From Octopus vulgaris (Eukaryota), in the NCBI GenBank assembly GCA_951406725.2, contig OX597814.1, positions 21,886,001-21,950,000 on the forward strand: a stretch of 64,000 nucleotides of DNA. Direction: 5' to 3'. Of this stretch, positions 6,736 to 61,586 are shown one piece after another. Each line of letters starts with the position of its first letter. The stretch's first letter is position 1. The translations under genes and the position numbers were made by a program. The notes under the pieces are model-generated. The model saw nothing but the letters and a program-made list of their open reading frames with translations, did not search any database and was not told the DNA's origin.

Positions 6736-8692
6736 AAAGTGAGCTTGAATCTTGCTTGCCTGCTTGCAATGTTACCCAGCCAAGCTGGTGCATAATTGGA
6801 AAAATACTATGAATTAAGTTTCCCCTGAAATGTGAATACAAATGGAATAAAACAAGTTTTGCATAAATCAGACCACTGGTTATTGAGATATTAAGGGTTT
6901 TCAGGGTATAAATAACCAAAACAGTGCATAATGGGAAAATTCTCCAAAAATAACTTAACCCTGAAAAGGAAGAAACTCTTACCTTTTGATTAGACACAGT
7001 GACTTGACAACAAGAAAATACAATTTGTTTTTTACAGTAAATGTTTCTATTTTCACTTTTGTTAAATGCAATATTTTAATCATTTAGAAATATTTCTAAG
7101 TGAATGTGATTTCAAAAATGTAAGTTGTTTGTACAGTATTTATATTTTAGCTTTCTTTAAACAGACAATATTTTAGTGTTTTTTTTAATTATTTTCAAGT
7201 GAATACCAATTACAAAAATTTTTTTGGCATATCTAAAAAATATTTTAAAGTGAAAATGACTTTAAAAAATATGATAAATATTTTGTAGAAAATCTGTTCA
7301 TAACCTCACTGTGAAATAATTTTTTTCCATAGGTTTTTTTAAGTGCATTCAATATATCTCACCTCCAAAGATTTGGTTGCTATTTCTAGCACGCCCTGCT
7401 ACCACATAATAGCTATTTGTAATGAAGAACCCAAAATACTTGTTACGAGGTAGCAGGGCATGCAAGAAATAACAGCCAAATATTTTCCTTTTCTGTGGAA
7501 AAGAACAGTTTACACGTAATTTCAATGTCACATTAGTTGAAAGCATGTAAAATAACCTGGAAAAGGAAAAAAACCTATGAAACAAAATTCTGTTGCTGGG
7601 AAACTCAGACTTTCCTGGTGACCCAATGGGTCACAAGTAGTCTAGTAAATATATATAAATGTACAGAAAGTACACACAGTATACAATAAGACATGGAAGG
7701 AGAGTATATACAGTATACAATAGTAAAACTAAAATTAATTGTTTCTAATTTTGGCCTAAGAGCAGCAATTTTGAGGGCGAAGCCAAGTAGATTGACCCTA
7801 TTACTTGATTGGTACTTTATTTCATTTCCCACAAAAGGGTGAAAACCAGAGTTGATTTGGGCAGGATTTGAACTCAGACTATAATGAGCCAGATGAAATG
7901 CTTCTAAGCATTTTGTGAGTGGGATATGTCAATTGCATCAACTTCACTACTTGACTGGTACTTTATTTTATCAATCCCCAAAAGACAAAAGGCAAGTTGA
8001 CTTCCGTGGCATTTGAACACAGAACACAAAGAGCTAGAAGAAATGCCACAAGTCTTTTGCCCAGCATGCTAACGATTCTGCCAGCTCACTGCTTTCATGA
8101 GGATAATACCCGTGGACATATTTACAAAGTCAGAAAACAGCACAGCTCCCATGACTTTAGGAAACACTTTTTCATGCTGAGAATTGCTGAAGCATGGAAC
8201 AAACTGCCGGCATCAGTTGTTAGTTGTCGAAGCACTGCATCCTTCAAAACTTCCATGCTTTCTGAGATTCGCCAACACTACACCTGATTTTCTCCCCTCC
8301 ATACACACACAAGCATGTATCTGACTCATACACTGTTCACTTTCCAAACATTTGTACATTACTGCATATACTTTATATGCACTTTTGACAAGTTGTGGTT
8401 CACCTGAGCACTGTATACAATAATTTCATTATTATTATTATAATAATAATGATAAACCAACTGAAACAGAAGTAAAAGATACCACAGACAATAAAATATG
8501 ATGCAATTTTTTTTTGAAAAAGTGTTCTAAGCATGTTTCTAAACATAGTGATTTCTCTTGCAGGTATCATGGCTGGTTCAAATCGTTCCGGAGATTTAGC
8601 TGATGCACAAAAATCAATCCCAACAGGAACTGTGGCTGCTATTATGACCACATCATTAGTCTGTATCCTTTTTTTTAAATTAATGGATTTTG

Positions 8693-8739
<47 letters not shown>

Positions 8740-11700
8740 TACTTGCCAGCCCCACTTGTAATAGTACCATGTAAGAAGCACCTGTGCTGGTGCAGTGTAA
8801 AATGAATCTGTACTGGTTCCAGATAAAAAAAAACATCCATGCCAGTGCCATAAAAAATGTACCCATACCTGTACCACATAAAAAGCACCTGTGCTGGTGC
8901 CATGTAAAAAGCACCCATACTGATGTCATATAAAAAGCATCCAGTACACTCTATAAAGTTGTTGGTATTAGGAGGAGCATTCAACCATAGAAACCATGCA
9001 AAAACAGACAATTGGAGCCTGATGCAGTTCTCTGGCTTGCCAGCTCCTGTCAAACCATCCACCCATACCAGTATGGAAAACAGGTGTTAAATGATGATGA
9101 TGATGATTTACTAGTATCTTATGTAAAGGCAGTTCTTTAGCTGAAATGTTATAACATCAGCATATAGGTGTTTGATCCTGTTTCTTCTAAATTCACATAA
9201 GAATCAACTTTCATCTCTGAAACATATGAACTGGGTACTTTGGCTGAGTATAGCTAAGAAGTTCTCATCCAAACCATGTGGATTCAGGTTCGATCCCACA
9301 GCACAGGACTGGAGACAAGGATATATTCCTAGAGCTCCAGACCAACTAAATCCTTGAGACGGGATGTTCTTTGGATGGGAACTAAAATAAGCCCATCATA
9401 TGCACGTGTTTACATTTTCACTTTACCAAATGTCACAAACTAAAGGCAGTGATAATGTCATTTCCCTGTCAATGTAGGAGTGGCTGTGTGGTAAGTAGCT
9501 TGCTTACCAACCACATGGCTCCGGGTTCAGTCCCACTGCGTGGCACCTTGGGCAAGTGTCTTCTACTTTAGCCTCAGGTCGACCAAAGCCTTGTAAGTGG
9601 ATTTGGTAGACAGAAACTGAAAGAAGCCCATCGTATATATGTATATATATATATATATGTGTATGTATGTATGTGTGTGTGTATATGTTTGTTTTATTTG
9701 TGTTTGTCCCCCCCCCCCCCCACATCACTTGACAACCGATGCTGGTGTGTTTACGTCCCCATAACTTAGCGGTTCGGCAAAAGAGACCGATAGAATAAGT
9801 ACTAGGCTTACAAAAAATAAGTTTTGGGGTCGATTTGCTCAACTAAAGGCGGTGCTCCAGCATGGCCACAGTCAAATGACTGAAACAAGTAAAAGAATAC
9901 TTTTCCACCTTTGAAGGCACATAATATAAAAGATCACTTATTGAAAAACATCTAAAGATTAGCAATAGGAAGTGTGTCTAGCAGTAAAACAATGTCTCAC
10001 CAATACATTCATCTAACCCATGCTAGCATAGAAAAACAAACTTTATTGCAGCTGATTGAGTTAATTATATTTGATTCTGTGTAAAAATTTCCCTTGTCAA
10101 TGTAAAATTTAATAATCTGCATAAAAATCACAAGGTTTAATAGAATGTTAATTAAAACATTTAGAGTAATACTTTCAGAAGTGTGAAGGCTTTGTAAAAA
10201 TGAATTTGCCATAACATCCAATGAACTTTTTTTTATAGTTCCTCTGAGAAATTTATTTGAACTAACAGTTCATTATTATAAATTGCTCATTATATGAGAT
10301 TTTAACAGCTTTTCCAGAGAAATTTTACAGTAACAATTTCAGAAGGAAGAAGAAATAAAAATATGTTTACTGCTTTACTGTGAATGAGATATACGTTCAG
10401 ATAATTTCCAAAATAAATACTTATGTTTAAACCCAGAGCTGAATTTTTGCCAAGCATTTTATAGGCAGCATTTTACTTTCATTTAGAAAATAAAATGTTC
10501 AGTTCAACAAAAAAGTAATAAACAAAAATTTGCCTGCTGTGAAAACAAACCACTGTCAACTCTCTTAACTGCTTAGGTTTCATCAACCACATAATCTTCC
10601 AAATTAAAGTCATGTTTATATGTACTGCTCCTAGCTGGCTTCTTGTCTGGCCAAAATTTTATTCAATATTTCACTTCTTTTTCTATTTTTTTTTTTGTTT
10701 CCTGGATTAAGTAGTTGTACTGTAACCATGTTGGGCCATAGCCTTTATGAGTCTTAGTTGGTTATATTAATCAAAGTACTGTTACTTTACTGAGTCCAGA
10801 CGAAAAAGGACATGAAAGTAAGCTGCGCATAAAATGGCTCTAACCAATATGGGTTGAAATGCCAAAAAGTATTTTCATACAATGCAAAGATTTTCTATCC
10901 TACACTGACATACAACTGAGTTGTGAAGTAGAGGATTGACTTCTTCACAGCTTCATATCAAATTCTGCTTAGACCTTGAAGCCATGGTGGAGTTGCTATG
11001 TATATCTGTGAAGATGTCACACCTCTTGTATTATTGTCACATTCAAACTCAGTTTGCAACACCTTAATAATACATATCAAGCAAGCTGCACAATATATTG
11101 TCTACCAAATACCACAAAATATGATGGAAAATTTGAGGATAGCCTCAAACACATTGAAGAGGTATTAACAAACCTAGATCAGAACATCAACATACTCTTC
11201 TTGGGTGATTTCAACCTCCCACATGTCAAATGGCCAGAAGACCACATCCTCTCTGGGATGTCACTGCATGAACAAAAGCATGTAGCGTCATTATTTGAAC
11301 TTACTAATAAGCTGTTCATGGAACAAGTGATACTCAGGCCAATCAAGGGGAAAACATATTGGACATATGCTTCACAAATAATGTGGACCTTTTCCATGTA
11401 AAGATGACACCAATGACACTCTCAGACTACAAAATTGTTGAACTAACTATGTATGGTACTGTACATATTGTTGGTATTTACTCTATCAGGAGGACTAGAG
11501 CTTTATCCAATCTGAATTTCCATAAGGCAAAATGGGAATCAATCCACAGAGATTTACAAACGAAACTGGTCCAACATTCTGTGAATGCAAGACATTGATC
11601 TGAAACTCAGCCAGTTTATGTCAACAGTGCAAGCTATATGCACTAAATATATCCCAGAAAGAAAGGCCAGCACACTGTCAAACCAGATTCCCAGGGACAG

Positions 11701-13659
11701 AAAATCCTCATGAGATGCAAATCAAAGACCTCAAAGCGGCTGAATAGACAACTGAAAGATAGAGAGAAGTCTCTTAACATGGACCCTCCTAGGAACTGAA
11801 AGCAAGATCAAACTCTCTCATGAAAGGAAAAAAACAAAGAGCAAATGGCTGTGGAAAGCATAAAAACAAATCCCAAAGTTTTCTATAAATTCGCAAAGGA
11901 AACAGCTACAATACAATATAAAATAGAACTTTTGTTCCAAGGGAATGGCTCACTGATGGCAGACCCACGGAGGATAATTGAGATAATTAGTGAACAATTT
12001 AAAAGTGTCTTCATTTCCCCACTTGGACACATGCAGATAAAAAAATACAGCTGAATTCTTTGATATTGCAGCTCTAAAAAAAGGAGACACCAGCCATCAA
12101 TTACATCAACATTGAGGAAACAGATGTAACAGTGTCTATAGATGAAATGAGCTCATGCTCTGCTACTGATCCTGATGGCTTCCCAGCTATTCTCCTAAAG
12201 TCATGTAAGCAGGCTTTAGCGAAACCACTTCAGATACTTTTCCGAAGTTTCCTTGCGTGTGGTATACTTCCTAAAAAGCTGAAAAAAGGTATTATATGTC
12301 CTATCCACAAAGGTGGAAGCATAGCAGAGGCCAAAAACTACTGGCCAATCTCTCTGACTTTGCATATCAGTAAAGTCACGGAGTGAATCATCAGAAGTTG
12401 GTAATGTTCCTAGAAGAAAATGACCTACTGAATAATACTCAGCATTATTGCCAATTATTATTCTTTCATCCAGGAAGAAGCTGACTCACACAGCTCCTAC
12501 AGCACTGTGACTAGGTTTTGAAACAGCTACTTGACCATTCAGATGTCACTGTGATATACATTGACTTTGCAAAGGTATTTGACGAAGTAGATCATGGCAT
12601 GATAAGTCATAAGCTATGAGACCTTGGCATCGCTGGTAAACTAGGAGAGTGACTGCATGACTTCCTGAAAAACAGAAGTCAGGTAGTTGCAGCCAATGGT
12701 GCCCTTTCTGAGGAAACTCAAATCCTAAGTGGTGTCCCCCAGGGAACTGTTCTAGGGCCATTACAATTCATAACAGCCCTCTTAGATATGCCCACAGTCA
12801 CTCAGACAGCCACTGTCGCTAGTTATGCCAATGATACAAAATTATCATAGGCAATAAAAAACCAAGAGGATGTCACAAGTTTACAGTGGAACTTAAACTC
12901 AATATACAAGTGGACTGAAATAAACAATATGCAGTTTAATGCTGGAAAATTACAAGCACTGCTCTATCAACTCACAAATACAGTACAATCTACATTTACA
13001 GGACCCAAAAGCATTACAATCCCAGAGTCACAGGCAGTGAAAGACTTGGGGATCAATATATGCATAAGCTTCCCCTCGCTGGGTTGACATCCACTGATTA
13101 GTTTTGGGCTAGTTGCCCCTTATCAATGTGGAGTAGCCAAACCCAGCAGGCGTTGCTGCTGACTGTCTGTTTGAAGGATTATTTACCTAAATTCAGTGGA
13201 ATACATCCACTGGTTTTCAAAATTAGAAATATTAACATTTCTATATCCATATATATATATATATATATATATAAACTCTTTAAGCTGATGTCCCAGTATG
13301 GCTGCAGTCCAATGAATGAAACAAGCAAAAGATAAATAGTAATAATAATTTTTAAACATTAAACGTACGTCCGTAGGTAACTTAATACAGAATGATTTCC
13401 GTCATTTCTTTCTCTTTTGCCTGCGTCGTTTGTTTTTTAAGTGCTTTGGTTTTACTGGGATCGCCCTTTTAAGTAGAAAGAATAGCCAAAACTTTTTGAC
13501 TGCTATTTCTAAATTCGGAATGTGGTGAGGCAAATCGTTGCTGAACCCTTAATTAATTAGTATTACTTAAACCTTCCTTGAATGGGTCTTTTACATGCCG
13601 AACTCTACTTGGTGAAATTAATGATTATTTCTAAATTAATTAATTTCACCCTATATTAT

Positions 13660-13721
<62 letters not shown>

Positions 13722-16247
13722 TTTTCGCTCAGAGATTTAAATTTAAAATTATTTGTTTTTCTTCTTTACAAGATCAGTGACTCAGTGTCGCTTTAAAAGT
13801 ATATACTATGAGCAGGAGCAAGTGGCTGCTATCTCTAGCCAGCAGCTGTCCTATACCGATGGAAGGGAATTACCCAGAACCATTGGTCTACAGGTATTGT
13901 TATGGCTAGAAAGGAAGCAGTAGGCTCCCTTGCTCATAGCATACAGACATAGATCATGTGTCGGTAGCCAGCTGGAAAAGATGTTTTTCGGGGGCTAAAA
14001 AGTAGTAACATCATCCCATGTAGGACTGCCACTTCACATTGGCAAATCTCTCTCTATATATAGATAGATATAGATATATATACATACATACATATATATA
14101 TTGTATGAGTTTTTCTTTCTTCCACCATTTGGCAATCAATGTTGGTTTGTTTTTATTGCACTAACTTAGTAGTTCAGTGAAGAGAAACAGACCAATAGAA
14201 TAATTTCCAGACTTTAAAAATAAGAAATGGAGTTGATTTATTTGACTAAACTCTTTAAGCTGATGTCCCAGTATGGCTGCAGTCCAATGAATGAAACAAG
14301 CAAAAGATAAATAGTAATAATAATTTTTAAACATTAAAATTTACAAAGTAGGTAGTAAGCACTCCAGAACTGAATCTTTCTACATCATGCAAAACATTTT
14401 AAAAGGAAGGTAGGGTAGGGGAAACCCCTCCTATTATTCAGACTATAATTATGCTATATATAATATTCATTGTAATCTGTTATATAAAGCAACAGTTTGT
14501 TCAATTTGAGATCATTTCAAAATAATCTGACTAATTTTTAGATGAATTATCATATAATATTGCATAGAAAATGTTGGCTAATAATTCATCTCTGTGTTTC
14601 ATAATACATAAGAATTCATTTTCGAAATTTATTTTGCATACATCACATTCATAGTAAACTATAAATCATGTATTCTGAAGTTGTTGCAGTAAAAGTTTTG
14701 GAAAAGCTGTTAAATAGGATAATTATCATAAGTTACAGATGTGGCTGAGTGGTTAACAAGTTTGTTTTGCAGCCATGTGGTTTCAGTTTCAGTCCCACTG
14801 TGCTGCAGATCAAAGATGATCAAAGCCTCATGAGTCAATTTGGTAGAGGAAAACTGAAATAAAAGCCTTTTCCATGCTTGCATGGGTCAGACAATTTGTT
14901 GAGGCAGATTTTCTTTGGGTAGATGCCCTTCTTGGCATCCAAGCAAGGTAATATTTCTTCATGGCCAGACAAATTTTTCACAGAAGACTGGAAACAAACA
15001 ACATTGTTTGTATGGAGGTGACACTCATTTGCAACCATTTTTCATAACCTTTCCACTACATATATATATATATATTTATATATATACATCGGCAAGTAAC
15101 AAATGCCATTTGAAGGTGGCCATTGCCAGTACTGCTTGACTGGCCCTTGTGCCAGTGGCACGTAAAAGCACCCACTACACTCTCAGAGTGGTTGGCATTA
15201 GGAAGGGCATCCAGCTGTAGATTCTCTGCCAGATCAGATTGGAGCCTGATGCAGCCTTCTGGTTTGCCAGTCCTCAGTCAAATCGTCCAACTCATGCTAG
15301 CATGGAAAGTGGATGTTAAACGATGCTGATGATGATGATCATCATCATTATCATCATCATCATTTAACATCCATTGTCCATACTGGCATGGGTTGGATGG
15401 TGTGACCAAAGCTGGCAAGCTGATTGGGCTGCACCAGACTCCTGTCTGATATGATATAATTTCTACAGCTAGAAGACCTTCCTAACACTTTCCACTTTAT
15501 AGAGTGTGCTGGATGCTTTTACATAGCTCTTCATGGTGCTTTTACATGATGCTGCACAGGTGTTTTTGCGTGTTACCATGTGGGTGCAGTTACATGTCAC
15601 CACAAGGGTGCTTTTATGTGTCACCACATGTATATGTATAGTGCAAAGATTATGCAAGATGTAATACAGAAACAAGGTAAAAATAGATAGAGTTGGTATT
15701 AGTTAATTGCTTGGGAAATGGAGAAAAAATTTAAGAAATATCTTTAATGTTTCACCCTTGTCTTGAAATCACATCATGGTTATAAATGTGCATCATCATC
15801 ATAATCAAACAAGCAATGTTGTTTGTTTCTAATCTTCTGTGAAAAATACAAGAACAAATTACCTTGCTTGGGGAAGCAGGTGAGTGTTGGGGACAGAAAA
15901 GCATTTGACCTTGGAAAGATTTGTCTTGACAAATTCCATTGGATCTATGAAAACATGGAAAAGTGAATGCTCAGACAATGGCTGGATGACTTATAAAATC
16001 ATTTTACAGATTGAAATTTGTGAAATATTGATGCCTTTTTCTTTTTGGTTTTTAGTTATTTGACTTGATATCAAGAAGAGCATCCAGCTACAAAAAATTC
16101 TCACTCAATAATGTTTCATCTAACCCAGCCAACCAGAGGAAAGAGAAAGTAGATGTTAAAGCAGTGCTATGCATACATATATTATGTGTGTGTATATACA
16201 TATATATATATATATATATAGAAAGATAAATATAGATAGATATAATA

Positions 16248-16294
<47 letters not shown>

Positions 16295-16704
16295 AGAGAG
16301 AGAGCTTGTTTTATATCCAACTTTTCTATGCTTTTATGCCCAACCTCTCAACTGTTAAGTTAAAGTACAATCTGCTTTTTATGTGAACTACAATCTGCTC
16401 AACTTTCATAAAAGCAGAATTATGTGCTTTGCTCAGGTGCACATGATGGCAATTAGGTCATGTTTGTGTGTGTATATATACGTATATGTGTGTATTCATA
16501 TGTACATATGTGTGTGTATATATATATATATATACATCCATATGTATATATATCTATATGCATGTATGTATATATGTATATACATATGTATATATATGTG
16601 TGTGTGTGCATATATATGTATATATATATATATATATGTATGTACATGTATTTCTATATATATACATGTATATATATATTTTTGTATATACATGTATATA
16701 TATA

Positions 16705-16743
<39 letters not shown>

Positions 16744-17921
16744 TAGCTTAAGGTGACCTGCTCTACGCGCGGGTAAGAGTGAGGTTGTTACTTTCTGTTG
16801 CTTCCTTTCAGCACGTAAAAAGCACCATCCGAACGTGGCCGATTGCTGCGCTGCCCTGACTGGCTTCTGTTCCAGTGGCACGTAAAAAGCACCAACCAAT
16901 TGTGGCCGCTGCCAGCCCCCCTGGCACCTGTGCCGGCGGCACGAAAAAAGCAGCCACTACACTCGCAGAGTGGTTGGAGTTAGGAAGGGCATCCACCTGT
17001 AGAAACACTGCCAGATCAGACTGGAGCCTGGTGCAGCCTCCTGGCTTCCCAGACCCCGGTCAAACTGTCCAACCCGTGCTAGCACTGAAAACGGACGTTA
17101 AACGATGATGATTCTCCCTCTTTGTTTCTCTCTCACTTTCCCACTCTCTTACTTTTCTTTTCTCTCGGACTCTCCCTCACTTTCTCTTACTCTCTATCTT
17201 TATCTATATCTCTCCCATTTATAAACAACAAAAGATCTTGAGTAAGTTGAGAAATAAAATATTTTGAAAGATCAATCATAAATATCAGGCAGTGACAACA
17301 GAAAGGTCTGCTTCAAGGCAGAGAGCAAAACACTAACATTTAAAAGGGACAGATGAACTTGCGAGCTGAATAAGAATAATAAAATATTGGAAACCAAAGT
17401 TTGAAGGGATAGAATCTGAGGATAGTAGAGTCACCATGGCTGGCATTTCTTAACGACGGACAGCAACGTATTGACAGTTTAACGGGTGGCGTAAAATTTT
17501 GAACTTGATGTAAAAGAAAATTCCTAAACACCAAGTTTTGAAGTGATTCTTTCTCACGACAGTAGACTCACCATGACAAGCATTCAAAACTTCTTCATCA
17601 TGGACGGCAACACATTGACGATTAAAAGGCTGGCGCAAATTTTTTAGCTTGATGTAACAGAGAATTCCTAAACACCCGCTCCTTTAAATTTTAATCCCCT
17701 TCCAGCCCTATTTAGACCCCTTTTCACATTTTGGTTAATATAACCCGATTTCATTCGGGTCTACTGGGGCCACATTTTATAAGATGAGGAATTTTGTCCT
17801 AGAGGTCACACCTTTCATTTGAGGAAAAAAATAGTTGTCATGCAAACTTGCCAGCACTTTTAACATAGGTGTGCATATTTTCAGCTCAACCGACCACATA
17901 ATGCACACATTATATACATAA

Positions 17922-17957
<36 letters not shown>

Positions 17958-20797: not shown

Positions 20798-20849
<52 letters not shown>

Positions 20850-24429: not shown

Positions 24430-24464
<35 letters not shown>

Positions 24465-25702: not shown

Positions 25703-25748
<46 letters not shown>

Positions 25749-28069: not shown

Positions 28070-28113
<44 letters not shown>

Positions 28114-40454: not shown

Positions 40455-40492
<38 letters not shown>

Positions 40493-40970: not shown

Positions 40971-41012
<42 letters not shown>

Positions 41013-45573: not shown

Positions 45574-45627
<54 letters not shown>

Positions 45628-46020: not shown

Positions 46021-46057
<37 letters not shown>

Positions 46058-49000: not shown

Positions 49001-49325
49001 GCAAGACACTTTATTTCACATTGCTCCAGTTCACTTACCTGCAAAAATTAGTTGTGATGTACATTATTTACATTCGATGGATATTTGTCCTCATCTTGTT
49101 TATTGTTAACACATTTCAGCTGATATACCCTCCAGCCTTCTTCACGTGTCTTGGGGAAATTTCGAACCTGGGTTCTCATTCCTAAGGTATTTTTCAATGT
49201 TATTATTATTATTGTTATTGCTCAGGTCACTGCTTGGAATTGAACTCAGAATCTTAGGTTTAAGAGTGCGGACTACTAACCCTAAGATTCTGAGTTCAAT
49301 TCCAAGCGTTGACCTGAACAATAAC

Positions 49326-49356
<31 letters not shown>

Positions 49357-52300: not shown

Positions 52301-55243
52301 CCACTCCTGCGCCTATGTGGACAAAATCTTACCACATAGCCACTTCTGCGCCCATGTGGGCAAAATCTTATGAGGGCAGTGACACCACCCTTCCTGCAAA
52401 TGCATGGAAATTTTTGCACTGGTAGGCCATGCCAGTTCTCAGCTGCTACTCCTAGTGTACAGACATGTAGTGTGTTCACTGGATTTTCATTTTCATGCAA
52501 GATAACTGAACACATTGAGCAGAGGTATTGTATCAAGTTAGGTGATACTCAAGCTCAAACCATCCATAAGATTCATCAGGCTTTTGGTGATAATGCCATG
52601 ATCAAGTAGTGATACGACCACTTCAAACATGGCTGCATCTTAGTGGAGAGTGAGGCATGCTCGGGTAGACCATCCATGAGCCAAAACAAGAAGCCGATTG
52701 AGAAGGTCCAGCAATTAGTTATGGAAGACCAACGTGTAACAATCCAGAAAATTGCTCACAAAGTGGGAATAAGCACAAGATCAGTGCATTCCATATTAAT
52801 GGAGGATTTGTATATGTGGAGAGTGTCAGTGAAATTCATCTGCAAGGTGCTGCTGGTGGAGCACCTTGGGAAAATAGTTCAGGACATGCTAGATTGTGCA
52901 AACCATGACCCAGGCTTCATGAAAACCATCATCATTGATGATGAAACATGGGTTTATGTTTATGACCTGGAAACCAAGTTCTGGTCCTCTTGATGGATGC
53001 ATCCATCATCATCGAGGCCCAAAAAAGCATGACGGGTTTGCAGCAATGTGAAGATAATGTTTCTTTAACACATGTGGTATTGTGCATCAGGAATAGGCAC
53101 CACAAAGCCAAACAATCAAGGAGGAAACCTATCTGGAGGTTATACATCACCTTCATGATGCTGTGTATTAAAAGTGGCTAGACATGTGTGGAGAAGTATT
53201 GACAACTTCACCATGACAATGCACCCATTCACTCCACCCACATAAACCAAGCTGTCCTCATCAAGAACACCATGCCAATTGTTCAAAAGGCTGCCTATTC
53301 TTCTGATTTAGCACCATGTGACTCCTAGCTCTTCCCCTATCTGAAAACCTCACTGAAAGCAGTTTGAATCACGAGAGGGAATTATGAAAAAAGTAATATC
53401 AAAGCTCCATAGCATTCCAAAGAACTGCTGAGAAAAGTGTGTGAACTCCTAAAGGGAGTATTTTGAAGGTGATTAAATAAAATTTGTGAAATGTACAATT
53501 TCTGTTTTTTATACCCAAAGGTCAGATGCTTTTCGAACTCACTTCATACAACACTTCCAGTCTCTACTACTATAGCTCCCTCATATTATACCCATTGAAA
53601 ATCATTCTCTACTATTACCAGTCCTCTATCCATCTTCCCTGATGTATTTCATTTCCTACACAATGTTATAAGTAATGTAGTTAAGTACCATAGTACTTAA
53701 TGTGGATCTATCAAGAAAACTTCAATTAACCATAATTGTAACCATATTAAGGGAAAACATTGTTGAACAATACTTAAGTACTTTACACAATTGTTTTTTC
53801 CTGAATTGCATCTCTTAAAATCTCCCTACTTATAATTTCCCTACAGCCAACTGTTGAAAATAAATATTAATGAGTCTACTCCACCCAAGTTATCCTTTTT
53901 CTGTATATAATGATTAGAGCCTTGAGTAGCTCAAGCTATTGTCCAGATACAGACAGAGACAGATATATGACACACACCACAAGAAAGACAAAGCAGTCAG
54001 TTATAAAAAACTGCATAACTACTTTCTTGGTATATCATTGCTTTGACTTAGTATCCAGTTGACGATGACTTAGTTTTTCAGCGAATTCATAAAATATGTG
54101 CTAATGTTTTTCAACAGTTGTACCAACTGTAATTCTTTCTCCTACAAAACTACCCATGCATGTAGCCAAAACATATTAGATGCATGCTCACACGTATACA
54201 TATACACTATTGTTCATTTTATACCTGTTCTCCTTTTATACCTGAGGCATTATTTTAGACCAAGACATTCTTCCAGTTACTGACTCTTACGTAGTTTACA
54301 AGTAAGGGATACCTTATTCACCGCATTTTGAGATGTGTTACGCCACTGGATGATCCAATGATAGGAGAAATAACAGTAACATCACAGTTCACAGCAGAAC
54401 AATATTTGGAGAACTCCAATTATGCACATATGCACATAACCACCGTACACATGTATACACACACTCATACACATACACACACACTGGGCTTCTTTGAGTT
54501 TTTGTCTGCCCCAAACCACATGATTGGGAAGCGAACTTCTTAACTACACACCCATACCGGCATCATATTATATATGTGTGAGTGTGCATGATAAAAAGGC
54601 AGATATTAAAGTATTAATGGCTTGCATTAGGAAATGCATCCAATCATAGAAACCATGACAAATCAGACTGGAGTCTGGTGCAGCTTGCCAGCCCTGGTCA
54701 AACCATCCAACCCATGCCAGCATGGACAACAGACGTTAAATGATGATGATTATGAGTTACACTCTTCAAACACTAATAGATTGATACTCTGAGTTTCTAA
54801 GTATCTAATCATAGTGTTTGCAACAGATCAGATTTATCAGATTGGGCTACAAGTAATGAATTACTCTAATTTCCAGAACTGTACAGCCCCCTTTTTACCC
54901 CCCACTTTTCTCTTGTTGTAATTTTGTAAAAATCCAACTGAATATGATATTAAACAATTGACTATGAAATTTGAACCAACCTACAGGCAACCGTTATGCA
55001 TATATTTCTTTAAAATTTACCTGCAAACTTTTCATTTTTAAGTAACCCAATCTTTCATGCTACTTTTTATGAAATTGTTCTGGCAACTCTGTTACATAGG
55101 AAACTCATTCTTAAGATATTAAAAGTTTTTTTGTTTTTCTCTTGCCTTTTTTAATACCAAACAGTATTTTTACATCTTATATTCAAATTTAGTGAACAAT
55201 GCTGGAGTAATTTAAAAACTGAATGATAAAAAATATTTTCACT

Positions 55244-55283
<40 letters not shown>

Positions 55284-55712
55284 ATTAAGTAAAAATGAAA
55301 GAAATCTAAGATAATTTGTTGCTGTTGAAATAACCCAAACATTTCAATGTTTACAATTTTACAGAACCCAAACAGCTGGCCTCGGTGGTTTGAAACATAA
55401 CACAATTATGATCGGATGGCCCTATGGATGGAGACATAGTCCTGAGCAGAAGAGCTACAGGGTCTTTATAGGTAAACCAATTAATTTCAAAATAATTACT
55501 ACTGTGATGTCTTGGCTCTTTTATTTTGAAAGCTTTATTACCTTGTTTCTCATAGCTGGCATCAGAAAGGATGATCAGTCTTAAAAATCATTGCCTCATC
55601 TGATCCATGCAAGCAGGGAAAAGTATACATGAAAATAATGGTGCTGATAGGCTTCCTCATATTTAAGAGGATTGTATACATCTACTTTCTTGCCTTCTTA
55701 ATTGTCTGTGGG

Positions 55713-55748
<36 letters not shown>

Positions 55749-56744
55749 CCCACACTTTATGTCTGTCTTTGTATTGTCCCCCTCATCCTTTGCCCTTGTG
55801 GCAAATAAATGAAATCATTCTTCTTCTTCTTTTTCTTCTTCTTCTTCTTCTTCTTCTTCTTCTTCTTCTTCTTCTTCTTCTTCTTTTTCTTCTTATTATT
55901 ATTATTAAAGATATTACACAGTATACAATATCATGAGGTTATTAATTGAAGATATTGTACTGCTTGTCAGGTCACAGCAAGGACCTCAGACAGACAGCAC
56001 TTTGAGCAATATACGTGCAGTTCCAAGTAATGCCGACTTTTGCAATACACCTATATTGTGGGGTATTTCTGAAGTTTTCAGATGGTTTTTCAGATTGGGT
56101 GGTATTGAACCCAATGTTCCCATGACAACAGGGATAACCTTTATGTTTGACTCTCGTAGCTACCACTTCTTAGCGATCTCAATTTGCAGGTCTCCATATC
56201 TATCAGCCTTTTCTCTTTCTTTCATGATGATATGTTGATCTCCTGGCACTGCCACATCAATTATTAGGCACTCTGGTTTGTAACTCCTAAAGGTTATTAT
56301 ATCTGGCTTTCAGTGCTCTAATACCTTGTCTGTCTGGAAGTCAAAGTCCCAGAGGATTTTTGTCTTCCCCTTTTCGTCCAATACCTTTTCCAGTGTATCT
56401 TGGTACCAAGCACCCATAGCCTCATATAGCCAGTGGAGATTTTGGGCTACCTTGTCATGTCTATGCTTGTACTCTTTCTGTGCAAGTCTTTCACAAGCAC
56501 TAACCATTATTATTATTATTATTATTATTATTAAGGCAGTGAGCTGACAGAAACGTTAGCACTCCGGGTGAAATGCTTAGCTGTATTTATCTGCCGTTAC
56601 GTTCTGAGTTCAAATTCCACCAAGGTCGACTTTGCCTTTCATCCTTTCAAGGGTTGATAAAATAAGTACTAGTTGAACACTGGGGTCAATGTAATCAACT
56701 CATCCCCTCCCCAAAAATTGTTGTTTTGTGGCAAAATCTGAAAC

Positions 56745-56784
<40 letters not shown>

Positions 56785-59700
56785 TAAGGCAGTGAGCTGG
56801 CAGAATTGTTAGCATGCCAGGCATAATGCTTAGCAGCATTTCATCCATCTTTATGTTCTGAGTTCAAATTCTGCTTAGGTCACCTTTGCCTTTCATCCTT
56901 TCAGGATTGATAAATTAAGTACTATTGAAACACTGGGGTCAGTGTGATCAACTAGTTCCCTACTCCAAAATTTCAGCCTTTGTGCCTATAGTGGAAAGGA
57001 TAATTATTATTATTTATCAATCATACGTCATATGTTACTCTTATCTATCTGAATATATGATAATTTTAGTTACATGTGTTAGTCTTGTATCTATTTTCAA
57101 ACATAGACCTTTGCTAAACTTTTGGTCCATGGATGATATATTTATGTCTCATCCAAACTATTATCTTGTCCTAGTGACTTTAATATTTGTTACCACTCTC
57201 ATAGTTAAGAATATAATTGATACTGTGTAACCATTACTTGCATGAGGAAACATAATAAAAATTTCTGCCAAATAAAATTATAAATTCATACTCATCAACT
57301 CTCAATGATGTTGAAGTAGTTATGTGACTTAATAGTCATGATACTAAGACAAGATTCTGACAACTGGATTAACAAAGAGCCTTAATTGTGCATTTAAGGA
57401 ATGTCTAATAAACAGTTATCAACTATACACTGTTTAATTTTTTTTTATTACCAATTTTTGTTATATGACTGTCGCAACATAACTGATGACTACATCAAAC
57501 TAGAACTCTCCACACTTCAGAAAGTATCCTCTGCCATCTCATGTTATTCACTCCACAGTTTCTATCATCTGTGTTTCTCTCTTAACATATCCCACACATC
57601 TGGTTTTAGCAAGCCCATGCTATCTTTATTCCTGTTCGTATTATATTTGTCTTGATCTTTAAACATATGTTGATGACTATCATGTATGAAGAGATGATAA
57701 AAGTGTCCTTTTGAGTTGTGTCTTAAATGTGAATACTAATTTGATAAGACAAAAAAAACGGTTATAAGCATATATTCAGTTAACAACAAACATATTTCTT
57801 TTAAAATTTCTTTTTGGCTTAAATGTAATTATGTTTTTTTTTTATATCTCTTTATAGACACCATCAGGAATGTTGCTGGTGCCCAGTTGGCATTAATGGC
57901 CGTAAAAGGCATTAACCAGTTCCCAGTTAACACGCAAAAACTAACCGGAACCATAGATGTCTGGTGGATTGTTCATATCCTTGAAATTAAAATTAATAAT
58001 GTATAGAATTAATTGAGCTAACACCTTTATCAAAGTACAAAAATACATTCATATAAGTTAGAAATACTTTCATCTTTCTTGAAATAGCTTAAATAATTAT
58101 ATCTAAAAACCTTAATTTTATTTTATCCAATTTTTTGTTTGTTTTTTAGCATGATTAGACAGATGTAAAAGGAAGTAAATTTTCCATTGTGTTAAAGCAA
58201 TCAGTAAATATTTTTAACATCATAACTTATAGATATCCTTATCTATATAGCTTAGATCCTTCTAGAAGATTTACATCTCCCTACTGACCGCTAGCATTCC
58301 AACATTTACAAGATAATAGCAATTAAAGCTGTTGATGTCTTGAGCTCAATGGAAGTTCAGTGATTACTTTGGGTAAAATAAACATGCATATGTGTTTATA
58401 CATGTGCATGTTTAATCTCCCATTGATATAAGATGGCTGATAATGATTTTAATAAAAGGTCAGAATTTTCAACATATAACTGGAATGTAAGAGAGATGAA
58501 AAACAAAAGTACCCAAGAATTCATTTAAGGTAAACAAGAGAAACATGATCTCAAATAACAGAATAATTATAATACCGGTGAAGAGAAAGTGTCAGATATC
58601 TTGTCTTTATTTTAACATCTGTTTGGTACCATGGAGAAAGCACCTACACCAGTGCCATGTAAAAGCACCCATGCCACTGCTGCATAAAAGCACCTAGTAT
58701 ACTCTATAAAGTGGTTTGTATTAGGAAGGGCATCCAGCCATTGAAACCATGCCAAAACAGACATGGATCCCAAGCAGCTCTTCAGCCAACATGGAAAATG
58801 GACATTAAATGATGATGATGATTTCCTGTTCTAGATTGGATGAGGAGTTTAAAAAATACTGATTTTACAGTATGTGTATTATTGACAATATTTTATTAAG
58901 GTTTATTATGTGAGTATATGAATTTAACTGTCAGATCATCATCATCATCGTTTAACGTCCGCTTTCCATGCTAGCATGGGTTGGACGATTTGACTGAGGG
59001 CTGGTGAACCAGATGGCTGCACCAGGCTCCAATCTTGATCTGGCAGAGTTTCTACAGCTGGATGCCCTTCCTAACGGCAACCACTCCAAGAGTGTTGTTG
59101 GTTGCTTTTACGTGCCACCAGCACAAGGGCCAGTCAGGTGGTACTGGCAACAGCCACAAAAAAATCGTGTTTTTTTTATGTGTCACCTGCACACCAGCAC
59201 AAGTGCCAGTAAGGTGACGCTGGTAATGATCATGTTCAAATGGTGCTTTTTACATGCCATGGATATTTCTATAAAAAAAAAAAGATAAAAGAAAAATCTT
59301 AATTAATAAGAAAAGTATGTTTAAGTAAATAAACTTGAATAGTTAAGATGTTCGATAAAATGTATTTGTCAATTTTATTTTTAAGTATCAAACCATCGAT
59401 ATATATCAAGATCATTATATGAAAGTTTAAAAAATCAATTTTTTCTTTTAATATCATATTGTTTTGTATATTTGGCTTTTCCCCACAATTATTTGCCTTA
59501 ATTTTGATTATATGAAGGAGGTCTTTTGATGTTGTTGCCCTTCCTGCTTAGACAACACAAAGTCTGGAAAAACTGCAAACTACGGATCTTCACAGTAGCC
59601 CGTATCCTTTGAAAGACCAAAAGTTCAACATTTACACCAAATATTTTTGATATCTAATTTTTCAGGGAATTTGTGTATATTCACAAATCTGAAGGAGGTT

Positions 59701-61586
59701 TTGTTGGGTGTTAGTAAGTATCCCTTACTTTTTGAAGTGGATACAGCTTACATTTCAGGATATATGCCATTCAATATAGTGTAATGAATAAAGGGTGGCA
59801 AAAGTGAATATTTGCTAAGGACAGGAATTGGCATTGGAGAGGAATTACTGTGAATGACAGATGTAAGAGTGAGGTGAAGGAGGAGAGCTAAGAAAGAGAG
59901 GGTTGGTGTGACAGCTGGCTGCCAAATGGCTGATAGTGTATCTAGCTAGCAATGTGTTGTCTGAATTACTTAGTGAGTGTTACACAAAGAGATATGTCTA
60001 GACATCTAGTGAGGCACAACTAAATAGACAAGCACACAAAATGTTAAGCACATGTAGTCAGTGAGTGTACAAATACAACGAAACATAATGTCTGAAAGGA
60101 GTGGAGAAGGATAGGAAGACAAAAGCTGTAAAACCAAGGAGTAAAAAAGAAAAGAGTGAAGTGTTGAAACTAGAGGAAATGAAGGTAAATGTTCATACAA
60201 GTAAGAGCAAAGGTTCTCAGTTCAAAATTGACCTGTTGTGCTTTTCAATTATTACATTGGTATATTCCAAACATGGGTTGACTAGATGTGAAGTGGTGAT
60301 TGACAGCTTTCAGGATGCTTAGGATGGTATTAAGGACATTGAGCAGATGTCTAGGACTTGTTACTCACATACAAAGTCTTGCAGAACAGCATGTAATACA
60401 GTACATTAGATTAGCAAAAGTGCAATCAAAATGGTCAAAAACGGGTAGTTTACTCAAAGCCATATAGAGTAATGATGCTGGGGCTGAAGTGGGGAATATA
60501 ACATTAAGTGCAGGAGGAGCAGGCAAAGGTTCCAAGTTAGGTGTTAGGGACTTTGGAGTCAGAAATTTTACAGAGATTTTTATCACTTTTGAAGAGGAGT
60601 AGGTAAGACTTCGTAGAATATGGGAGCAGTAGTTAGGTCAAACTGTAAAAAAAATTTCAGAAATTATAAGGAAGTGAGTGAAAGATGAGGATGGAAGGGA
60701 ATGTATGCCACAGGTTAGCAGTTCAAGACATAGAAGAGCAGTGGTGCAGTTAATGGTGTGGGCGTAGCAATACCAGTGGAAGTTTGTGGCTACATTCAAA
60801 AGACGGTGAGACAATTCTTGAAATCAGAGGCTATGGAAGAATAGATCTTTTAAAGCTAAATATTATCAGTCTAGTGCCATCAGTACTAGAGAGTTTGTCT
60901 ACTGAAACCAAAGAATTTCCCTTTCCTTCTATTCTCTATGAGCTTTTATTTGGAATAACTGCTTTGCTGAAGGGGTTGCCCCTGCTACAACTTACTGTGT
61001 CCTCATCCTTGTTAGTAATTCTTGACATATCCCATATAATAAATAATTGAAAGAAAACAAGTCTGAAAGTGGGAGTGAGCTCTAAGGATTCTTTACATGT
61101 GCACAGCATTATTATAAACAAATAGTTATATTTAGTGGCTGTTTGGCTGTTGCAACTTTTCCAGTCATGCTTTTTTTACACAGGATTTTTTTTAACACAG
61201 TAGATTTTTCTACAAAATAATAATTTCGTGGTACTGAATTAACTGCCTTAAAATATTTTAAACGTGTGAGTGTGTGTGTTTGTTTGAGAGATTCAATAGA
61301 AAATCTAAAATAAATTAAATGGATTGCATTTTCTTTTGTTTGTATATTCTGAGATTAAATTCCTTTATGTTGACTTTACCTTTCATGTACACAAAATCAA
61401 TAAAATAATACCAACAATTTGCTGGGATCAATATACCATTCATTCAGTTTTTGGTATTCTGTATTTGTTATTTTCTTAATAATACACTTCTTAGAACTGG
61501 AAGATAACAGTATTCAAATGGAAAAGGATCTTAACCAATACATGTATAACTTACGTATTGAAGCTGAAGTTAAAATTGTTGAGATG
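1464..61586 (+). CDS. KCC: K+-Cl- cotransporter (KCC; SLC12A4/5/6/7-like), partial multi-exon CDS: join(1464-1604,8564-8662,23092-23149,26327-26445,28413-28587,29510-29608,31435-31554,33943-34047,37144-37232,42721-42800,48226-48314,55365-55471,57858-57974,59512-59601,61495-61586)
   Basis: Manual splicing gives one frame with matching intron phases (1580 nt). It contains the KCC motifs [88 protein letters not shown] and EDNSIQM. Confidence 0.96.
1829..2125 (+). mobile_element. tRNA-derived SINE, family D (second copy 22153-22456)
   Basis: A-box GGCCCAGTGG and B-box-like GTTTTGATTCC; two dispersed, highly similar copies. Confidence 0.8.
2870..3030 (+). mobile_element. tRNA-derived SINE, family A (other copies about 9475-9900, 14738-14870, 62345-62500 on +; 21425-21755, 45430-45575, 52195-52315 on -)
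   Basis: Head GGAGTGGCTGTGTGGTAAG...GGGTTCA, followed by an internal (TA)n/(TG)n tract; many dispersed copies. Confidence 0.85.
3551..3775 (+). mobile_element. tRNA-derived SINE, family C (other copies about 4133-4330, 40848-41230, 56532-57005 on +; 2200-2418, 6365-6583, 7745-8090, 31826-32052, 51955-52190 on -)
   Basis: Head AAGGYGGTGAGCTGGCAGAAT...GAGTTCAAATTC; core GCCTTTCATCCTTTCRGGGTYGATAAA; (ATT)n tail. Confidence 0.85.
3896..4076. mobile_element. Inverted-structure insertion of the hammerhead-bearing element (family E)
   Basis: Minus-strand tail followed by plus-strand GACAC-CTGATGA-A-GGCTG..CAGCC-AAAACGTT; degenerate TSD ATGATAATCTCA/ATGGTGATCTCA, in a host repeat seen intact at about 4370-4925. 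Confidence 0.7.
5857..6290 (-). mobile_element. Family B retroposon with (GAT)n tail and 5' tandem array (about 20 copies, e.g. 625-828, 8760-9106, 15105-15630, 16810-17112, 25215-25615, 30080-30412, 36745-37110, 39678-39988, 43060-43395, 58640-59260)
   Basis: Shared body GAGTGGTTGGCRTTAGGAAGGGCATCCAGC and tail CCAACCCATGCYAGCATGGAAA...GATGATGAT. Confidence 0.85.
6033..6282. repeat. 62-bp tandem repeat x4 within a family B element
   Basis: GCCACC recurs at 6041, 6103, 6165 and 6227; units are nearly identical. Confidence 0.92.
8095..8430 (+). mobile_element. 3' end of a CR1/L2-like LINE (second copy 28920-29228 on -)
   Basis: [11 protein letters not shown]...[16 protein letters not shown], the typical post-RT C-terminus, plus 3' UTR and (ATT)n tail. 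Confidence 0.8.
8564..8662 (+). CDS. KCC: KCC exon ([33 protein letters not shown])
   Basis: CAG|GT acceptor; ends at U12 donor T|GTATCCTTT. Confidence 0.95.
9475..9900 (+). mobile_element. Full-length family A SINE
   Basis: tRNA-like head, internal microsatellite, and 3' part ending GAAACAAGTAAAAGA, which is shared with 21425-21600 (-). Confidence 0.85.
10800..13060 (+). mobile_element. Decayed CR1/L2/Jockey-group LINE ORF2 (APE endonuclease + RT)
   Basis: [61 protein letters not shown]; many stops and frameshifts. Confidence 0.9.
13272..13363 (+). repeat. 92-bp exact direct duplication of 14247-14338
   Basis: Identical by eye from TAAACTCTTTAAGCTG to TTTAAACATTAAA. Confidence 0.85.
16460..16742. 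repeat. Compound (TA)n/(TG)n/(CA)n microsatellite, one of many in the window
   Basis: Direct inspection; source of the YIYI pseudo-ORFs. Confidence 0.95.
16743..18811 (-). mobile_element. Putative non-autonomous Helitron with nested family B copy and internal ~140-bp duplication (17421-17677)
   Basis: On the minus strand it reads A|TC...hairpin(ACCCGC/GCAGGT)..CTAG|T; pairing of the two ends is inferred. Confidence 0.5.
19355..20230 (+). mobile_element. RTE-clade LINE reverse transcriptase fragment
   Basis: ORF 19677-20060 has [23 protein letters not shown] and FIDMEKA; downstream GVH*GSVLS is disrupted. Confidence 0.9.
22153..22456 (+). mobile_element. tRNA-derived SINE, family D
   Basis: Colinear with 1829-2125. 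Confidence 0.8.
23092..23149 (+). CDS. KCC: KCC 58-nt exon ([20 protein letters not shown]), not in ORF track
   Basis: U12-like branch site TATCTTTAAC about 10 nt before TAG; donor AA|GTAAGT; phases fit both neighbours. Confidence 0.93.
24537..24790. mobile_element. MITE / fold-back element with ~90-bp imperfect inverted arms
   Basis: 24537-24630 aligns to the reverse complement of 24700-24790 (TATCATTTAATGTRCACAGTAT...ATGGGTCTAGGYAGGTTTT). Confidence 0.75.
26327..26445 (+). CDS. KCC: KCC exon ([40 protein letters not shown])
   Basis: TAG|A acceptor; G|GTTTG donor; TM8 motif. Confidence 0.95.
28413..28587 (+). CDS. KCC: KCC exon ([15 protein letters not shown]...[11 protein letters not shown])
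   Basis: CAG|GA acceptor; AT|GTAAGT donor. Confidence 0.95.
29510..29608 (+). CDS. KCC: KCC exon ([33 protein letters not shown])
   Basis: AAG|G acceptor; TG|GTAAGT donor; TM10 motif. Confidence 0.95.
31435..31554 (+). CDS. KCC: KCC exon ([40 protein letters not shown])
   Basis: TAG|G acceptor; GG|GTAAGA donor; TM11-12. Confidence 0.95.
32660..32945 (+). mobile_element. tRNA-headed short element with hammerhead ribozyme motif (family E)
   Basis: B-box GTTCGATTCC at 32718-32727, (AAT)n linker, GACAC-CTGATGA...GAAACGTT-GTGTT at 32812-32858. Confidence 0.75.
33943..34047 (+). CDS. KCC: KCC exon ([35 protein letters not shown])
   Basis: CAG|T acceptor; AG|GTACGT donor. Confidence 0.96.
34255..34622 (+). 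mobile_element. Helentron/DINE-1-like non-autonomous element
   Basis: Subterminal inverted repeat ACCTCCGCC/GGTGGAGGT, (GTTT)n tract, 3' hairpin GCACTC..GGGTGC, TT flanks. Confidence 0.6.
35249..35476. mobile_element. TTAA-flanked (piggyBac-like) MITE; inverted copy at 42827-43039
   Basis: TTAA-CCCTTTTGTTACC ... GGTATCAAAAATG-TTAA terminal inverted repeats. Confidence 0.65.
37144..37232 (+). CDS. KCC: KCC exon ([30 protein letters not shown])
   Basis: CAG|G acceptor; G|GTAAAT donor. Confidence 0.93.
37398..37618. mobile_element. Tc1/mariner-type MITE; inverted copy at 43521-43738
   Basis: TIR ..AAAAGTTCCTGGCTTT / AAAGCAAGGAACTTTT..; TA flanks. Confidence 0.7.
37972..40117 (-). mobile_element. 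hAT (Buster/Charlie/SPIN, GTF2IRD2-like) DNA transposon with degenerate transposase
   Basis: TIR CAGGGGTCACCAG/CAGGAGTCACCAG; 8-bp TSD ATTTAGAA/ATTTAGAG with central TA. ORF fragments [44 protein letters not shown]. Nested family B copy at 39678-39988. Confidence 0.93.
41445..41955 (-). mobile_element. Fragment of an RLE-type non-LTR retrotransposon (R4/Dong-like)
   Basis: Minus strand reads [11 protein letters not shown]...[21 protein letters not shown]...LIDMAVP. Confidence 0.7.
42721..42800 (+). CDS. KCC: KCC exon ([26 protein letters not shown])
   Basis: TAG|GT acceptor; CAA|GTAAGT donor. Confidence 0.93.
43850..44190 (-). mobile_element. tRNA-derived SINE, family F (uninterrupted copy)
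   Basis: Colinear with 48907-49060 joined to 49557-49743. Confidence 0.8.
45627..46023 (-). mobile_element. Non-autonomous Helitron inserted in (TA)n
   Basis: Minus strand A|TCTTTATATA...GC-rich hairpin...CTAG|T. Confidence 0.7.
48226..48314 (+). CDS. KCC: KCC exon ([30 protein letters not shown])
   Basis: TAG|GCA acceptor; CT|GTGAGT donor. Confidence 0.93.
48390..48906 (-). mobile_element. 3' end of an RTE LINE ORF joined to a family B body and tail
   Basis: [14 protein letters not shown]...EGSR..RPRKTW (ORF 48667-48918), then family B motifs. Confidence 0.8.
49061..49542. mobile_element. Head-to-head inverted duplication of family E (hammerhead-bearing) with 14-bp TSD
   Basis: ATTAGTTGTGATGT at 49047-49060 and 49543-49556; about 200-bp inverted arms centred near 49268. 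Confidence 0.88.
49404..49449 (+). ncRNA. Minimal type I hammerhead ribozyme motif
   Basis: GACAC-CUGAAGA-A-GGCUG(gaggguauau)CAGCC-GAAAC-GUU-GCGUU. Confidence 0.65.
50590..51150 (-). mobile_element. RTE-like LINE C-terminal fragment
   Basis: LRRFGHAA...[21 protein letters not shown] (ORF 50687-50983). Confidence 0.75.
51471..51702. mobile_element. Partly inverted retro-insertion with 11-bp TSD and A-rich tail
   Basis: AGATATTTTTA at 51460-51470 and 51703-51713; inverted arms 51471-51506 and 51597-51632. Confidence 0.7.
51902..53546 (+). mobile_element. Mariner-like transposon with degenerate transposase and two nested SINEs
   Basis: TA-flanked TIRs TGARGTG..TTCGAAAAGYATYTGAC; [41 protein letters not shown]. 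Confidence 0.9.
55365..55471 (+). CDS. KCC: KCC exon ([36 protein letters not shown])
   Basis: CAG|A acceptor; G|GTAAAC donor. Confidence 0.94.
55905..56500 (-). mobile_element. 3' fragment of an RLE-type non-LTR retrotransposon (R4/Dong-like)
   Basis: [24 protein letters not shown]...[24 protein letters not shown]. Confidence 0.8.
57858..57974 (+). CDS. KCC: KCC exon ([39 protein letters not shown])
   Basis: TAG|AC acceptor; ends at U12 donor C|ATATCCTT. Confidence 0.92.
57975..59511 (+). other. U12-type intron with apparent AT-AT termini
   Basis: 5' splice site ATATCCTTG; branch TTTGCCTTAAT 10-11 nt before the terminal AT; no AC near the branch site. Confidence 0.8.
59512..59601 (+). CDS. 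KCC: KCC exon ([30 protein letters not shown]), flanked by two U12 introns
   Basis: Branch site TTTGCCTTAAT at 59492-59502; acceptor TAT|AT inferred from protein conservation; donor C|GTATCCTTT. Confidence 0.88.
59602..61494 (+). other. U12-type GT-AG intron
   Basis: 5' splice site GTATCCTTT; branch TTTTCTTAAT about 15 nt before the AG. Confidence 0.88.
60150..60900 (-). mobile_element. Possible decayed Penelope-like element (GIY-YIG region)
   Basis: [16 protein letters not shown] resembles the FxCxSxNxIYCIxC motif of PLE endonucleases; boundaries are uncertain. Confidence 0.45.
61495..61586 (+). CDS. KCC: KCC exon ([30 protein letters not shown])
   Basis: Branch site TTTTCTTAAT at 61471-61480, TAG|AA acceptor; ATG|GTAAGA donor. 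Confidence 0.94.

What the first reader, a model, noticed from the sequence alone, without database searches (positions are those of the whole stretch)
8663..61494. Three U12-type introns in one KCC gene
Seen: donors GTATCCTTT (8663), ATATCCTTG (57975) and GTATCCTTT (59602), each with a U12-like branch site 10-16 nt from its acceptor; all three are phase 1. Known: minor introns are a very small fraction of introns, and most host genes carry only one. From memory (unverified), vertebrate KCC genes keep a minor intron at the TTSxVY position but not at the two C-terminal positions. Inference: this gene may preserve an ancestral multi-U12 architecture, making chloride extrusion dependent on the minor spliceosome.
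Basis: partly seen in the sequence, partly recalled or inferred. Interest (0 to 1): 0.7.

Follow-up and report, generated by a model that had tools for sequence, protein, structure and literature searches.

The report
Four minor introns in octopus KCC
The octopus potassium-chloride transporter gene has four introns with the signals of the rare "minor" splicing machine (three in this window, one just past it), two likely shared with the human genes and two with worms, arthropods or corals, so it likely keeps an old gene layout that vertebrates trimmed; a special regulatory role is not shown.

Summary
Observation confirmed and extended. The window holds 15 of the 27 exons of an octopus KCC (SLC12A4-7 family) gene. 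The three donors sit exactly at exon ends, all phase 1. The middle intron (57975-59511) is a non-canonical AT-AT intron. A fourth U12-type intron, the gene's last, lies 10 kb past the window. 4 of 26 introns have an exact RTATCCTT donor; the other 22 differ by 3 or more bases. The genome has U11, U12, U4atac, U6atac and CENATAC.

Human and mouse KCC1-4 already carry two catalogued minor introns each, matching octopus positions 1 and 4, so minor-spliceosome dependence of KCC is known. Positions 2 and 3 are not minor in human but recur in annelids, bryozoan-like animals and arthropods, and position 3 in corals: an inherited layout, later trimmed. Four exceeds the human and mouse maximum of three per gene. 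A public O. vulgaris model is truncated at the AT-AT intron. No regulatory role was shown. My look-ups found no earlier scan note on this. Real, tidy, moderate interest.

The parts
1464..61586 (+). KCC (SLC12A4-7 family) gene, exons 9-23 of 27: 1464-1604, 8564-8662, 23092-23149, 26327-26445, 28413-28587, 29510-29608, 31435-31554, 33943-34047, 37144-37232, 42721-42800, 48226-48314, 55365-55471, 57858-57974, 59512-59601, 61495-61586. Whole gene G000:C1:21755319-21963245. The fourth U12-type intron (intron 26, position 4) lies outside the window at G000:C1:21960142-21963153: GT-AG, 3,012 nt, phase 1, splits Y1077 (EQN-Y-MEF), branch TTCCTTAAT 14 nt from the acceptor.
   Evidence: tblastn; model of 3321 nt, 1106 aa, no internal stop, 1 difference from O. 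sinensis P0001; 1204-1288 bits to human/mouse KCC1-4 against at most 377 to NKCC/NCC; intron 26 junction in contigs of X1, X4, X11
8663..23091 (+). Intron 10, U12-type GT-AG, 14,429 nt, phase 1, splits Y486 (TTSLV-Y). Position 1, shared with vertebrate KCCs.
23075..23083 (+). Predicted branch site of intron 10, TCTTTAACT, A at 23081, 10 nt from the acceptor
   Evidence: best pairing to this genome's U12 snRNA among all 26 introns, 7.5 of 8
57975..59511 (+). Intron 21, U12-type with non-canonical AT-AT ends, 1,537 nt, phase 1, splits H872 (DVWWIV-H). Position 2.
   Evidence: joint 57974 to 59512, ends AT..AT, in contigs of X1, X4, X11; donor with 0 mismatches
59495..59503 (+). Predicted branch site of intron 21, GCCTTAATT, A at 59501, 10 nt from the acceptor
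59512..59601 (+). Exon 22, 90 nt, flanked on both sides by U12-type introns of the same phase
59602..61494 (+). Intron 22, U12-type GT-AG, 1,893 nt, phase 1, splits Q902 (FTVA-Q). Position 3.
   Evidence: joint 59601 to 61495, GT..AG, in X1, X4, X11; donor with 0 mismatches
61473..61481 (+). Predicted branch site of intron 22, TTCTTAATA, A at 61479, 15 nt from the acceptor

Best explanation
This is the octopus KCC gene, with four introns that carry exact U12-type donors and are likely removed by the minor spliceosome, all four likely inherited from an early animal ancestor rather than gained in octopus. Shown: gene model, donors, phases, three of four junctions in RNA-type contigs, the AT-AT ends, and the minor snRNA and CENATAC genes in the genome. 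Inferred: U11 and then U6atac pair with the donor, U12 pairs with the branch site 10-15 nt from the acceptor, and the loose last-base rule of the minor spliceosome lets intron 21 end in AT. Inferred history: positions 1 and 4 date at least to the bilaterian ancestor, position 3 to the cnidarian-bilaterian ancestor, position 2 at least to the protostome ancestor; vertebrates have no minor introns at 2 and 3, and insect-like genes have no intron there. Position 2 likely switched between GT and AT type within molluscs. Retention of any of the four would truncate the protein (532, 881, 904, 1089 aa), so full-length KCC would need the minor spliceosome, as in human, but the number four is most simply explained by slow intron loss in molluscs.
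For: 4 of 26 donors exact, the other 22 with 3 or more mismatches. Junctions in three studies. U12 125 bits with intact branch-binding stretch, U11 94, U6atac 97, U4atac 84 bits, CCDC84/CENATAC exons. Human and mouse SLC12A4-7 each have two minor introns; the 8 donors listed all follow T (fits Tyr codons of positions 1 and 4, not the C of His or Gln); vertebrate models that read through give TTSFI-CIL and N-CIL. Genomic loci: annelid L071 (sister to Capitella, SH-aLRT 100) has U12 donors at 2 and 3 and TTCCTTAAC at 2; coral L049/L065 at 3. Named read-through models: Strigamia and Lamellibrachia at 2, Caerostris at 3. Molluscs are relatively rich in minor introns and U12 introns cluster in genes.
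Against: intronIC was not run. Branch sites are imperfect and not diagnostic in this AT-rich genome. The runs are only guessed to be RNA and are contigs. Outside octopus no single gene was seen with all four. Much of the comparative evidence is read-through peptide (RIL, HIL, CIL) from unnamed records placed by short similarity, and the profile used was built from such peptides and favours them. No deuterostome invertebrate locus was identified. Coral loci lack position 2.
Confidence: 0.85

Rival explanations
1. The tandem pair (AT-AT intron 21 and GT-AG intron 22 around a 90-nt exon) is kept by selection as a regulated switch: retention or in-frame skipping would tune the only KCC of the animal, and so chloride extrusion, by tissue or stress.
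For: Only one KCC-type gene was found in G000 (strict first look). Introns 20-22 are all phase 1, so skipping exon 22 or exons 21+22 is in frame; one O. bimaculoides model (P0002) lacks exactly exons 21+22. A-type introns are CENATAC-sensitive with higher basal retention in human cells (PMC8280824 passages); minor-spliceosome inhibition causes flanking exon skipping (PMC8034651 passages).
Against: The main contigs of three runs are spliced at these introns and no skip joint was among the rows shown (1,096 weaker rows not shown). P0002 is also wrong at intron 10, so it is probably a prediction error. Vertebrates and insect-like genes do without these two minor introns. PMC10639083 argues for largely neutral minor-intron evolution (title, abstract start and passages).
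Confidence: 0.15
2. One or more of the four are U12-like relics now spliced wholly or partly by the major spliceosome.
For: Branch sites have 1-2 mismatches; some mouse minor introns with weak branch sites get help from U2 (PMC8848931 passages); a coral-like ORF shows a GTAAY donor at position 3, so conversion may happen.
Against: All four donors are exact over 8 nt; an AT-AT intron with ATATCCTT has no usual major-type ends; the orthologous human, mouse and zebrafish introns respond to minor-spliceosome loss.
Confidence: 0.08
3. The AT-AT end is an assembly error or private variant of an ordinary AT-AC intron.
For: I saw the terminal base only in this assembly; differences in run X18 at that place could be among 110 rows not shown.
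Against: X18 covers 59231-60605 and no difference at 59510-59511 is in the rows shown. The Argonauta model P0003 reads WWIV-PCVY-EGG, which implies a T before the exon and a forced acceptor 9 nt upstream, the same spacing as here (inference). AT-AT is a known class: 6 human, 6 mouse, 0.95% of conserved animal minor introns.
Confidence: 0.07

Closest known systems
The two minor introns of human and mouse SLC12A4, SLC12A5, SLC12A6, SLC12A7 (MIDB; PMC6717393 supplement files 1 and 8), e.g. SLC12A4 chr16:67950712-67950961 and 67944932-67945086
   Same: Same gene family; same two positions by donor context and read-through signature (TTSxV-Y and the last intron N-Y); GT-type; listed as responsive to minor-spliceosome inhibition for SLC12A4 and SLC12A7 (PMC11347168 Table S6 rows).
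   Different: Octopus has two more (H872, Q902), consecutive, one AT-AT; the octopus intron 10 is 14.4 kb against 144-1,064 nt for the vertebrate upstream introns.
Genes with several minor introns in human and mouse (50 genes with two, 3 genes with three; PMC6717393 section 5) and non-random clustering of U12 introns (PMC7367187 section 15)
   Same: Clustering of minor introns in one gene is an established pattern.
   Different: Four is above the human and mouse maximum in that list. Whether other invertebrate genes reach four was not found in my searches and was not computed.
Non-canonical AT-AT (A-type, AT-AN) U12 introns (PMC1557818 tables 2-3; PMC10639083 section 30; PMC8280824)
   Same: ATATCCTT donor, U12-like branch site 10 nt from an AT acceptor.
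   Different: Here the orthologous intron is GT-type in annelids, bryozoan-like animals and a centipede, and AT-type in bivalve-like fragments, i.e. a likely subtype switch inside molluscs.

Membership tests
U12-type (minor) intron | Extended 5' splice site RTATCCTT at a true exon end | tested here: met
   4 of 4 exact; other 22 introns 3 or more mismatches
U12-type (minor) intron | U12-pairing branch site close to the 3' splice site | tested here: inconclusive
   Sites with 1-2 mismatches at 10, 10, 15, 14 nt; similar scores occur in three major introns and at 3% of AG sites
U12-type (minor) intron | Intron is removed at these borders in mRNA | tested here: met
   Introns 21, 22, 26 in contigs of three probable RNA runs; intron 10 only through public and Logan-derived proteins
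U12-type (minor) intron | Host genome encodes U11, U12, U4atac, U6atac | tested here: met
   All four over Rfam cut-off
U12-type (minor) intron | Classifier (intronIC) score above threshold | not testable with these tools
U12-type (minor) intron | Splicing depends on minor snRNPs | not testable with these tools
   Shown only for vertebrate orthologues of positions 1 and 4
KCC subfamily (SLC12A4-7) | Full-length similarity to KCC1-4 well above NKCC/NCC; AA_permease plus SLC12 C-terminal domain | tested here: met
KCC subfamily (SLC12A4-7) | Electroneutral K-Cl cotransport | not testable with these tools
   inferred from family only

The most novel reading that the evidence does not exclude
The early animal KCC gene carried four minor introns; octopus keeps the full set, more than any human or mouse gene in the MIDB list, and uses the tandem AT-AT / GT-AG pair around exon 22 as a CENATAC-sensitive switch that sets how much full-length chloride extruder its neurons make.
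Probability: 0.12. Interest if true: 0.7.

Novelty: new member of a known kind. Interest (0 to 1): 0.4.

Why it matters
It shows that human-centred lists miss old minor-intron positions: half of the KCC set is absent from vertebrates as minor introns yet widespread in invertebrates. The gene puts a GT-type and an AT-AT intron side by side around one short exon, a clean natural substrate for comparing subtypes and for asking whether several minor introns slow expression. Practically, gene predictors fail here: a public O. vulgaris model stops at residue 881 inside the AT-AT intron and lacks the last 225 or so residues, and O. bimaculoides, Argonauta, Strigamia, Lamellibrachia and Caerostris models are damaged at the same positions. 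Anyone cloning cephalopod KCC to study inhibitory signalling needs the corrected model.

Tried and rejected
1) Branch-site score as a classifier: rejected, not discriminating. 2) Other RTATCCTY hits on the + strand of the window (874, 3466, 35756, 45187, 57524, 58233) lie inside introns, not at exon ends. 3) My first exon set had wrong borders at several major introns and was corrected; use. 5) No RNA holder is on record; intron-covering contigs cannot give retention levels. 6) Whether vertebrates have a major intron or none at position 3 was not seen; a fish-like locus L101 has none at position 2 and an apparent intron after QHK instead; a paper search for SLC12A6 exon borders gave nothing. 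7) Fragments P0293, P0297, P0300 look non-bilaterian and carry U12 read-through at 2 or 3, but could not be named, so they are not used for dating. 8) The Lin 2010 supplement has no SLC12A entry; PMC10639083 text and supplement have no SLC12 mention. 9) The tree is the quick tree; deep branches are unreliable and only the Capitella-L071 and coral-L049 groupings are used. 10) Two NKCC-like paralogues showed no U12 donor at the exon ends found, but only part of each gene was fetched.

Full report
What the gene is. An exon of the window matched KCC proteins of Octopus at 100%. tblastn of O. sinensis P0001 placed 15 exons in the window and 12 in neighbouring stretches of the genome. The corrected model has 27 exons, 3321 nt, 1106 aa, no internal stop and one difference from P0001. 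P0001 scores 1204-1288 bits to solved KCC1-4 chains and at most 377 to NKCC/NCC. A search of the genome with P0001 found one KCC-type gene; the other hits look like two NKCC-like genes, an SLC12A9-like gene and a more distant family member (strict first look, so a floor).

The observation. Introns: 8663-23091 (GT-AG, Y486), 57975-59511 (AT-AT, H872), 59602-61494 (GT-AG, Q902). A fourth, the last intron, lies past the window at G000:C1:21960142-21963153 (GT-AG, Y1077, branch TTCCTTAAT). All four are phase 1. 4 of 26 donors match RTATCCTT exactly; the other 22 have at least 3 mismatches. Chance on a local background is about 3e-9, under an independence assumption that known clustering breaks. 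Branch sites lie 10, 10, 15 and 14 nt from the acceptors but have 1-2 mismatches, and 450 of 14,689 AG sites have a similar match, so they support but do not decide.

RNA. Of 24 runs listed (none on record as RNA), I laid X1, X4, X11 (three studies, RNA by guess) with X18 or X19. All three join 57974 to 59512 (ends AT..AT) and 59601 to 61495, and all three leave exon 26 at the fourth donor and continue in the last exon. Contigs give no retention levels.

Machinery. U12 (125 bits, branch-binding stretch intact), U11, U6atac, U4atac and CCDC84/CENATAC exons are in the genome.

Vertebrates. In PMC6717393 (section 5, passages and supplement rows seen) each of SLC12A4-7 has two minor introns in human and in mouse. 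The 8 donors printed there (of 16 introns) all follow a T, as the split Tyr codons of positions 1 and 4 need and the His and Gln codons of positions 2 and 3 do not. Among 272 proteins scanned, vertebrate models that read through give TTSFI-CIL (6 proteins: opossum, turtle, pheasant) and N-CIL before the last exon (two fishes). The mapping is therefore by context, not by vertebrate genomic sequence. PMC11347168 Table S6 rows list both SLC12A4 and both SLC12A7 human introns, and mouse and zebrafish ones, as responsive to minor-spliceosome loss; a mouse Slc12a4 intron serves as a U12 reporter (PMC8848931 passages). PMC6717393 gives 50 genes with two minor introns and 3 with three, none with more.

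Invertebrates. Of 119 metagenome loci, 27 were KCC-like at position 2: 7 with a U12 donor, 20 without an intron. L071, sister to Capitella (76% identity), has GT-type U12 donors at positions 2 and 3 and a perfect branch site at 2. L049 (87-89% identical to stony-coral KCC) and its near twin L065 have position 3 but not 2. Insect-like loci have neither. Read-through peptides: position 2 in Strigamia, Lamellibrachia and two bryozoan-like ORFs; position 3 in the spider Caerostris and 11 cnidarian-like ORFs, two of them octocoral-like. In a profile search, 104 of 146 new proteins covered position 2: 37 RIL (GT-type), 2 HIL (AT-type, nearest Mytilus), 50 spliced or intronless, 15 other; the profile was built from read-through peptides and favours them. 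Parsimony: 1 and 4 bilaterian, 3 cnidarian-bilaterian, 2 at least protostome. No deuterostome invertebrate locus was identified, and no single gene outside octopus was seen with all four.

The AT-AT intron. AT-AT is a rare known class (PMC1557818 tables; PMC10639083 section 30 and supplement row, 0.95%). A-type introns need CENATAC in human cells (PMC8280824 passages). It defeats annotation: the O. vulgaris model P0031 is 881 aa and ends [14 protein letters not shown], the same length and ending as the retention product of my model.

How it works. Shown: structure, junctions, machinery. Inferred from the established U11/U12/U6atac pathway: removal by the minor spliceosome. Computed: retention gives 532, 881, 904 or 1089 aa; skipping exon 22 or 21+22 stays in frame. 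That KCC needs its extreme C-terminus is recalled, not checked. Nothing here shows regulation. Molluscs are relatively rich in minor introns and most orthologues of human minor introns in molluscs are minor too (passages), and clustering is general, so slow loss is enough to explain four.

Novelty. Searches (listings, plus the passages cited) found no paper on octopus or invertebrate KCC minor introns; two papers contain a phrase about four minor introns and were seen only as listings. Octopus genomes were run in both large surveys, whose per-intron tables on figshare and the MIDB site I could not see, so these introns may already be catalogued there. Look-ups of this scan's notes found nothing on this gene or family. 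Verdict: real, a new member of a known kind, interest 0.4.

Noticed in passing
L001:3681-3695 (G000:C1:21953681-21953695): 15-nt alternative microexon (AG...GT borders) between exons 25 and 26, adding five residues (QMKP-QQRIC-DKK as in P0029); present in run X4, absent in X1 and X11.
   Followed up: partly
end of exon 25, L001 near 2063: Run X1 reads G where the genome and X4, X11 read A, turning Met1030 into Val: possible A-to-I recoding or a polymorphism.
   Followed up: no
L159:2100 (G000:C3:39292100): The SLC12A9-like gene has a U12 donor after GGGAY; human and mouse SLC12A9 also have one minor intron.
   Followed up: partly
G000, many contigs: 43 U6atac matches against one strong U12 and one strong U4atac; 45 are already listed for O. 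bimaculoides.
   Followed up: partly
P0158 (coral-like ORF): Reads FTVA-RNL, i.e. a GTAAY donor at position 3: possible U12-to-U2 conversion.
   Followed up: no
P0134, P0419-P0424: An unnamed 1107-aa KCC called as one ORF on contigs up to 282 kb, so apparently intronless, in a lineage close to fragments that do have U12 introns.
   Followed up: no
P0031, P0002, P0003, P0020, P0089, P0287: Public KCC models of six invertebrates are truncated or distorted at the U12 positions.
   Followed up: yes
window introns, e.g. 5857-5901, 30373-30414, 56464-57045, 58792-59082: Introns are full of high-copy octopus repeats; one copy was taken as a false exon in model P0002.
   Followed up: no
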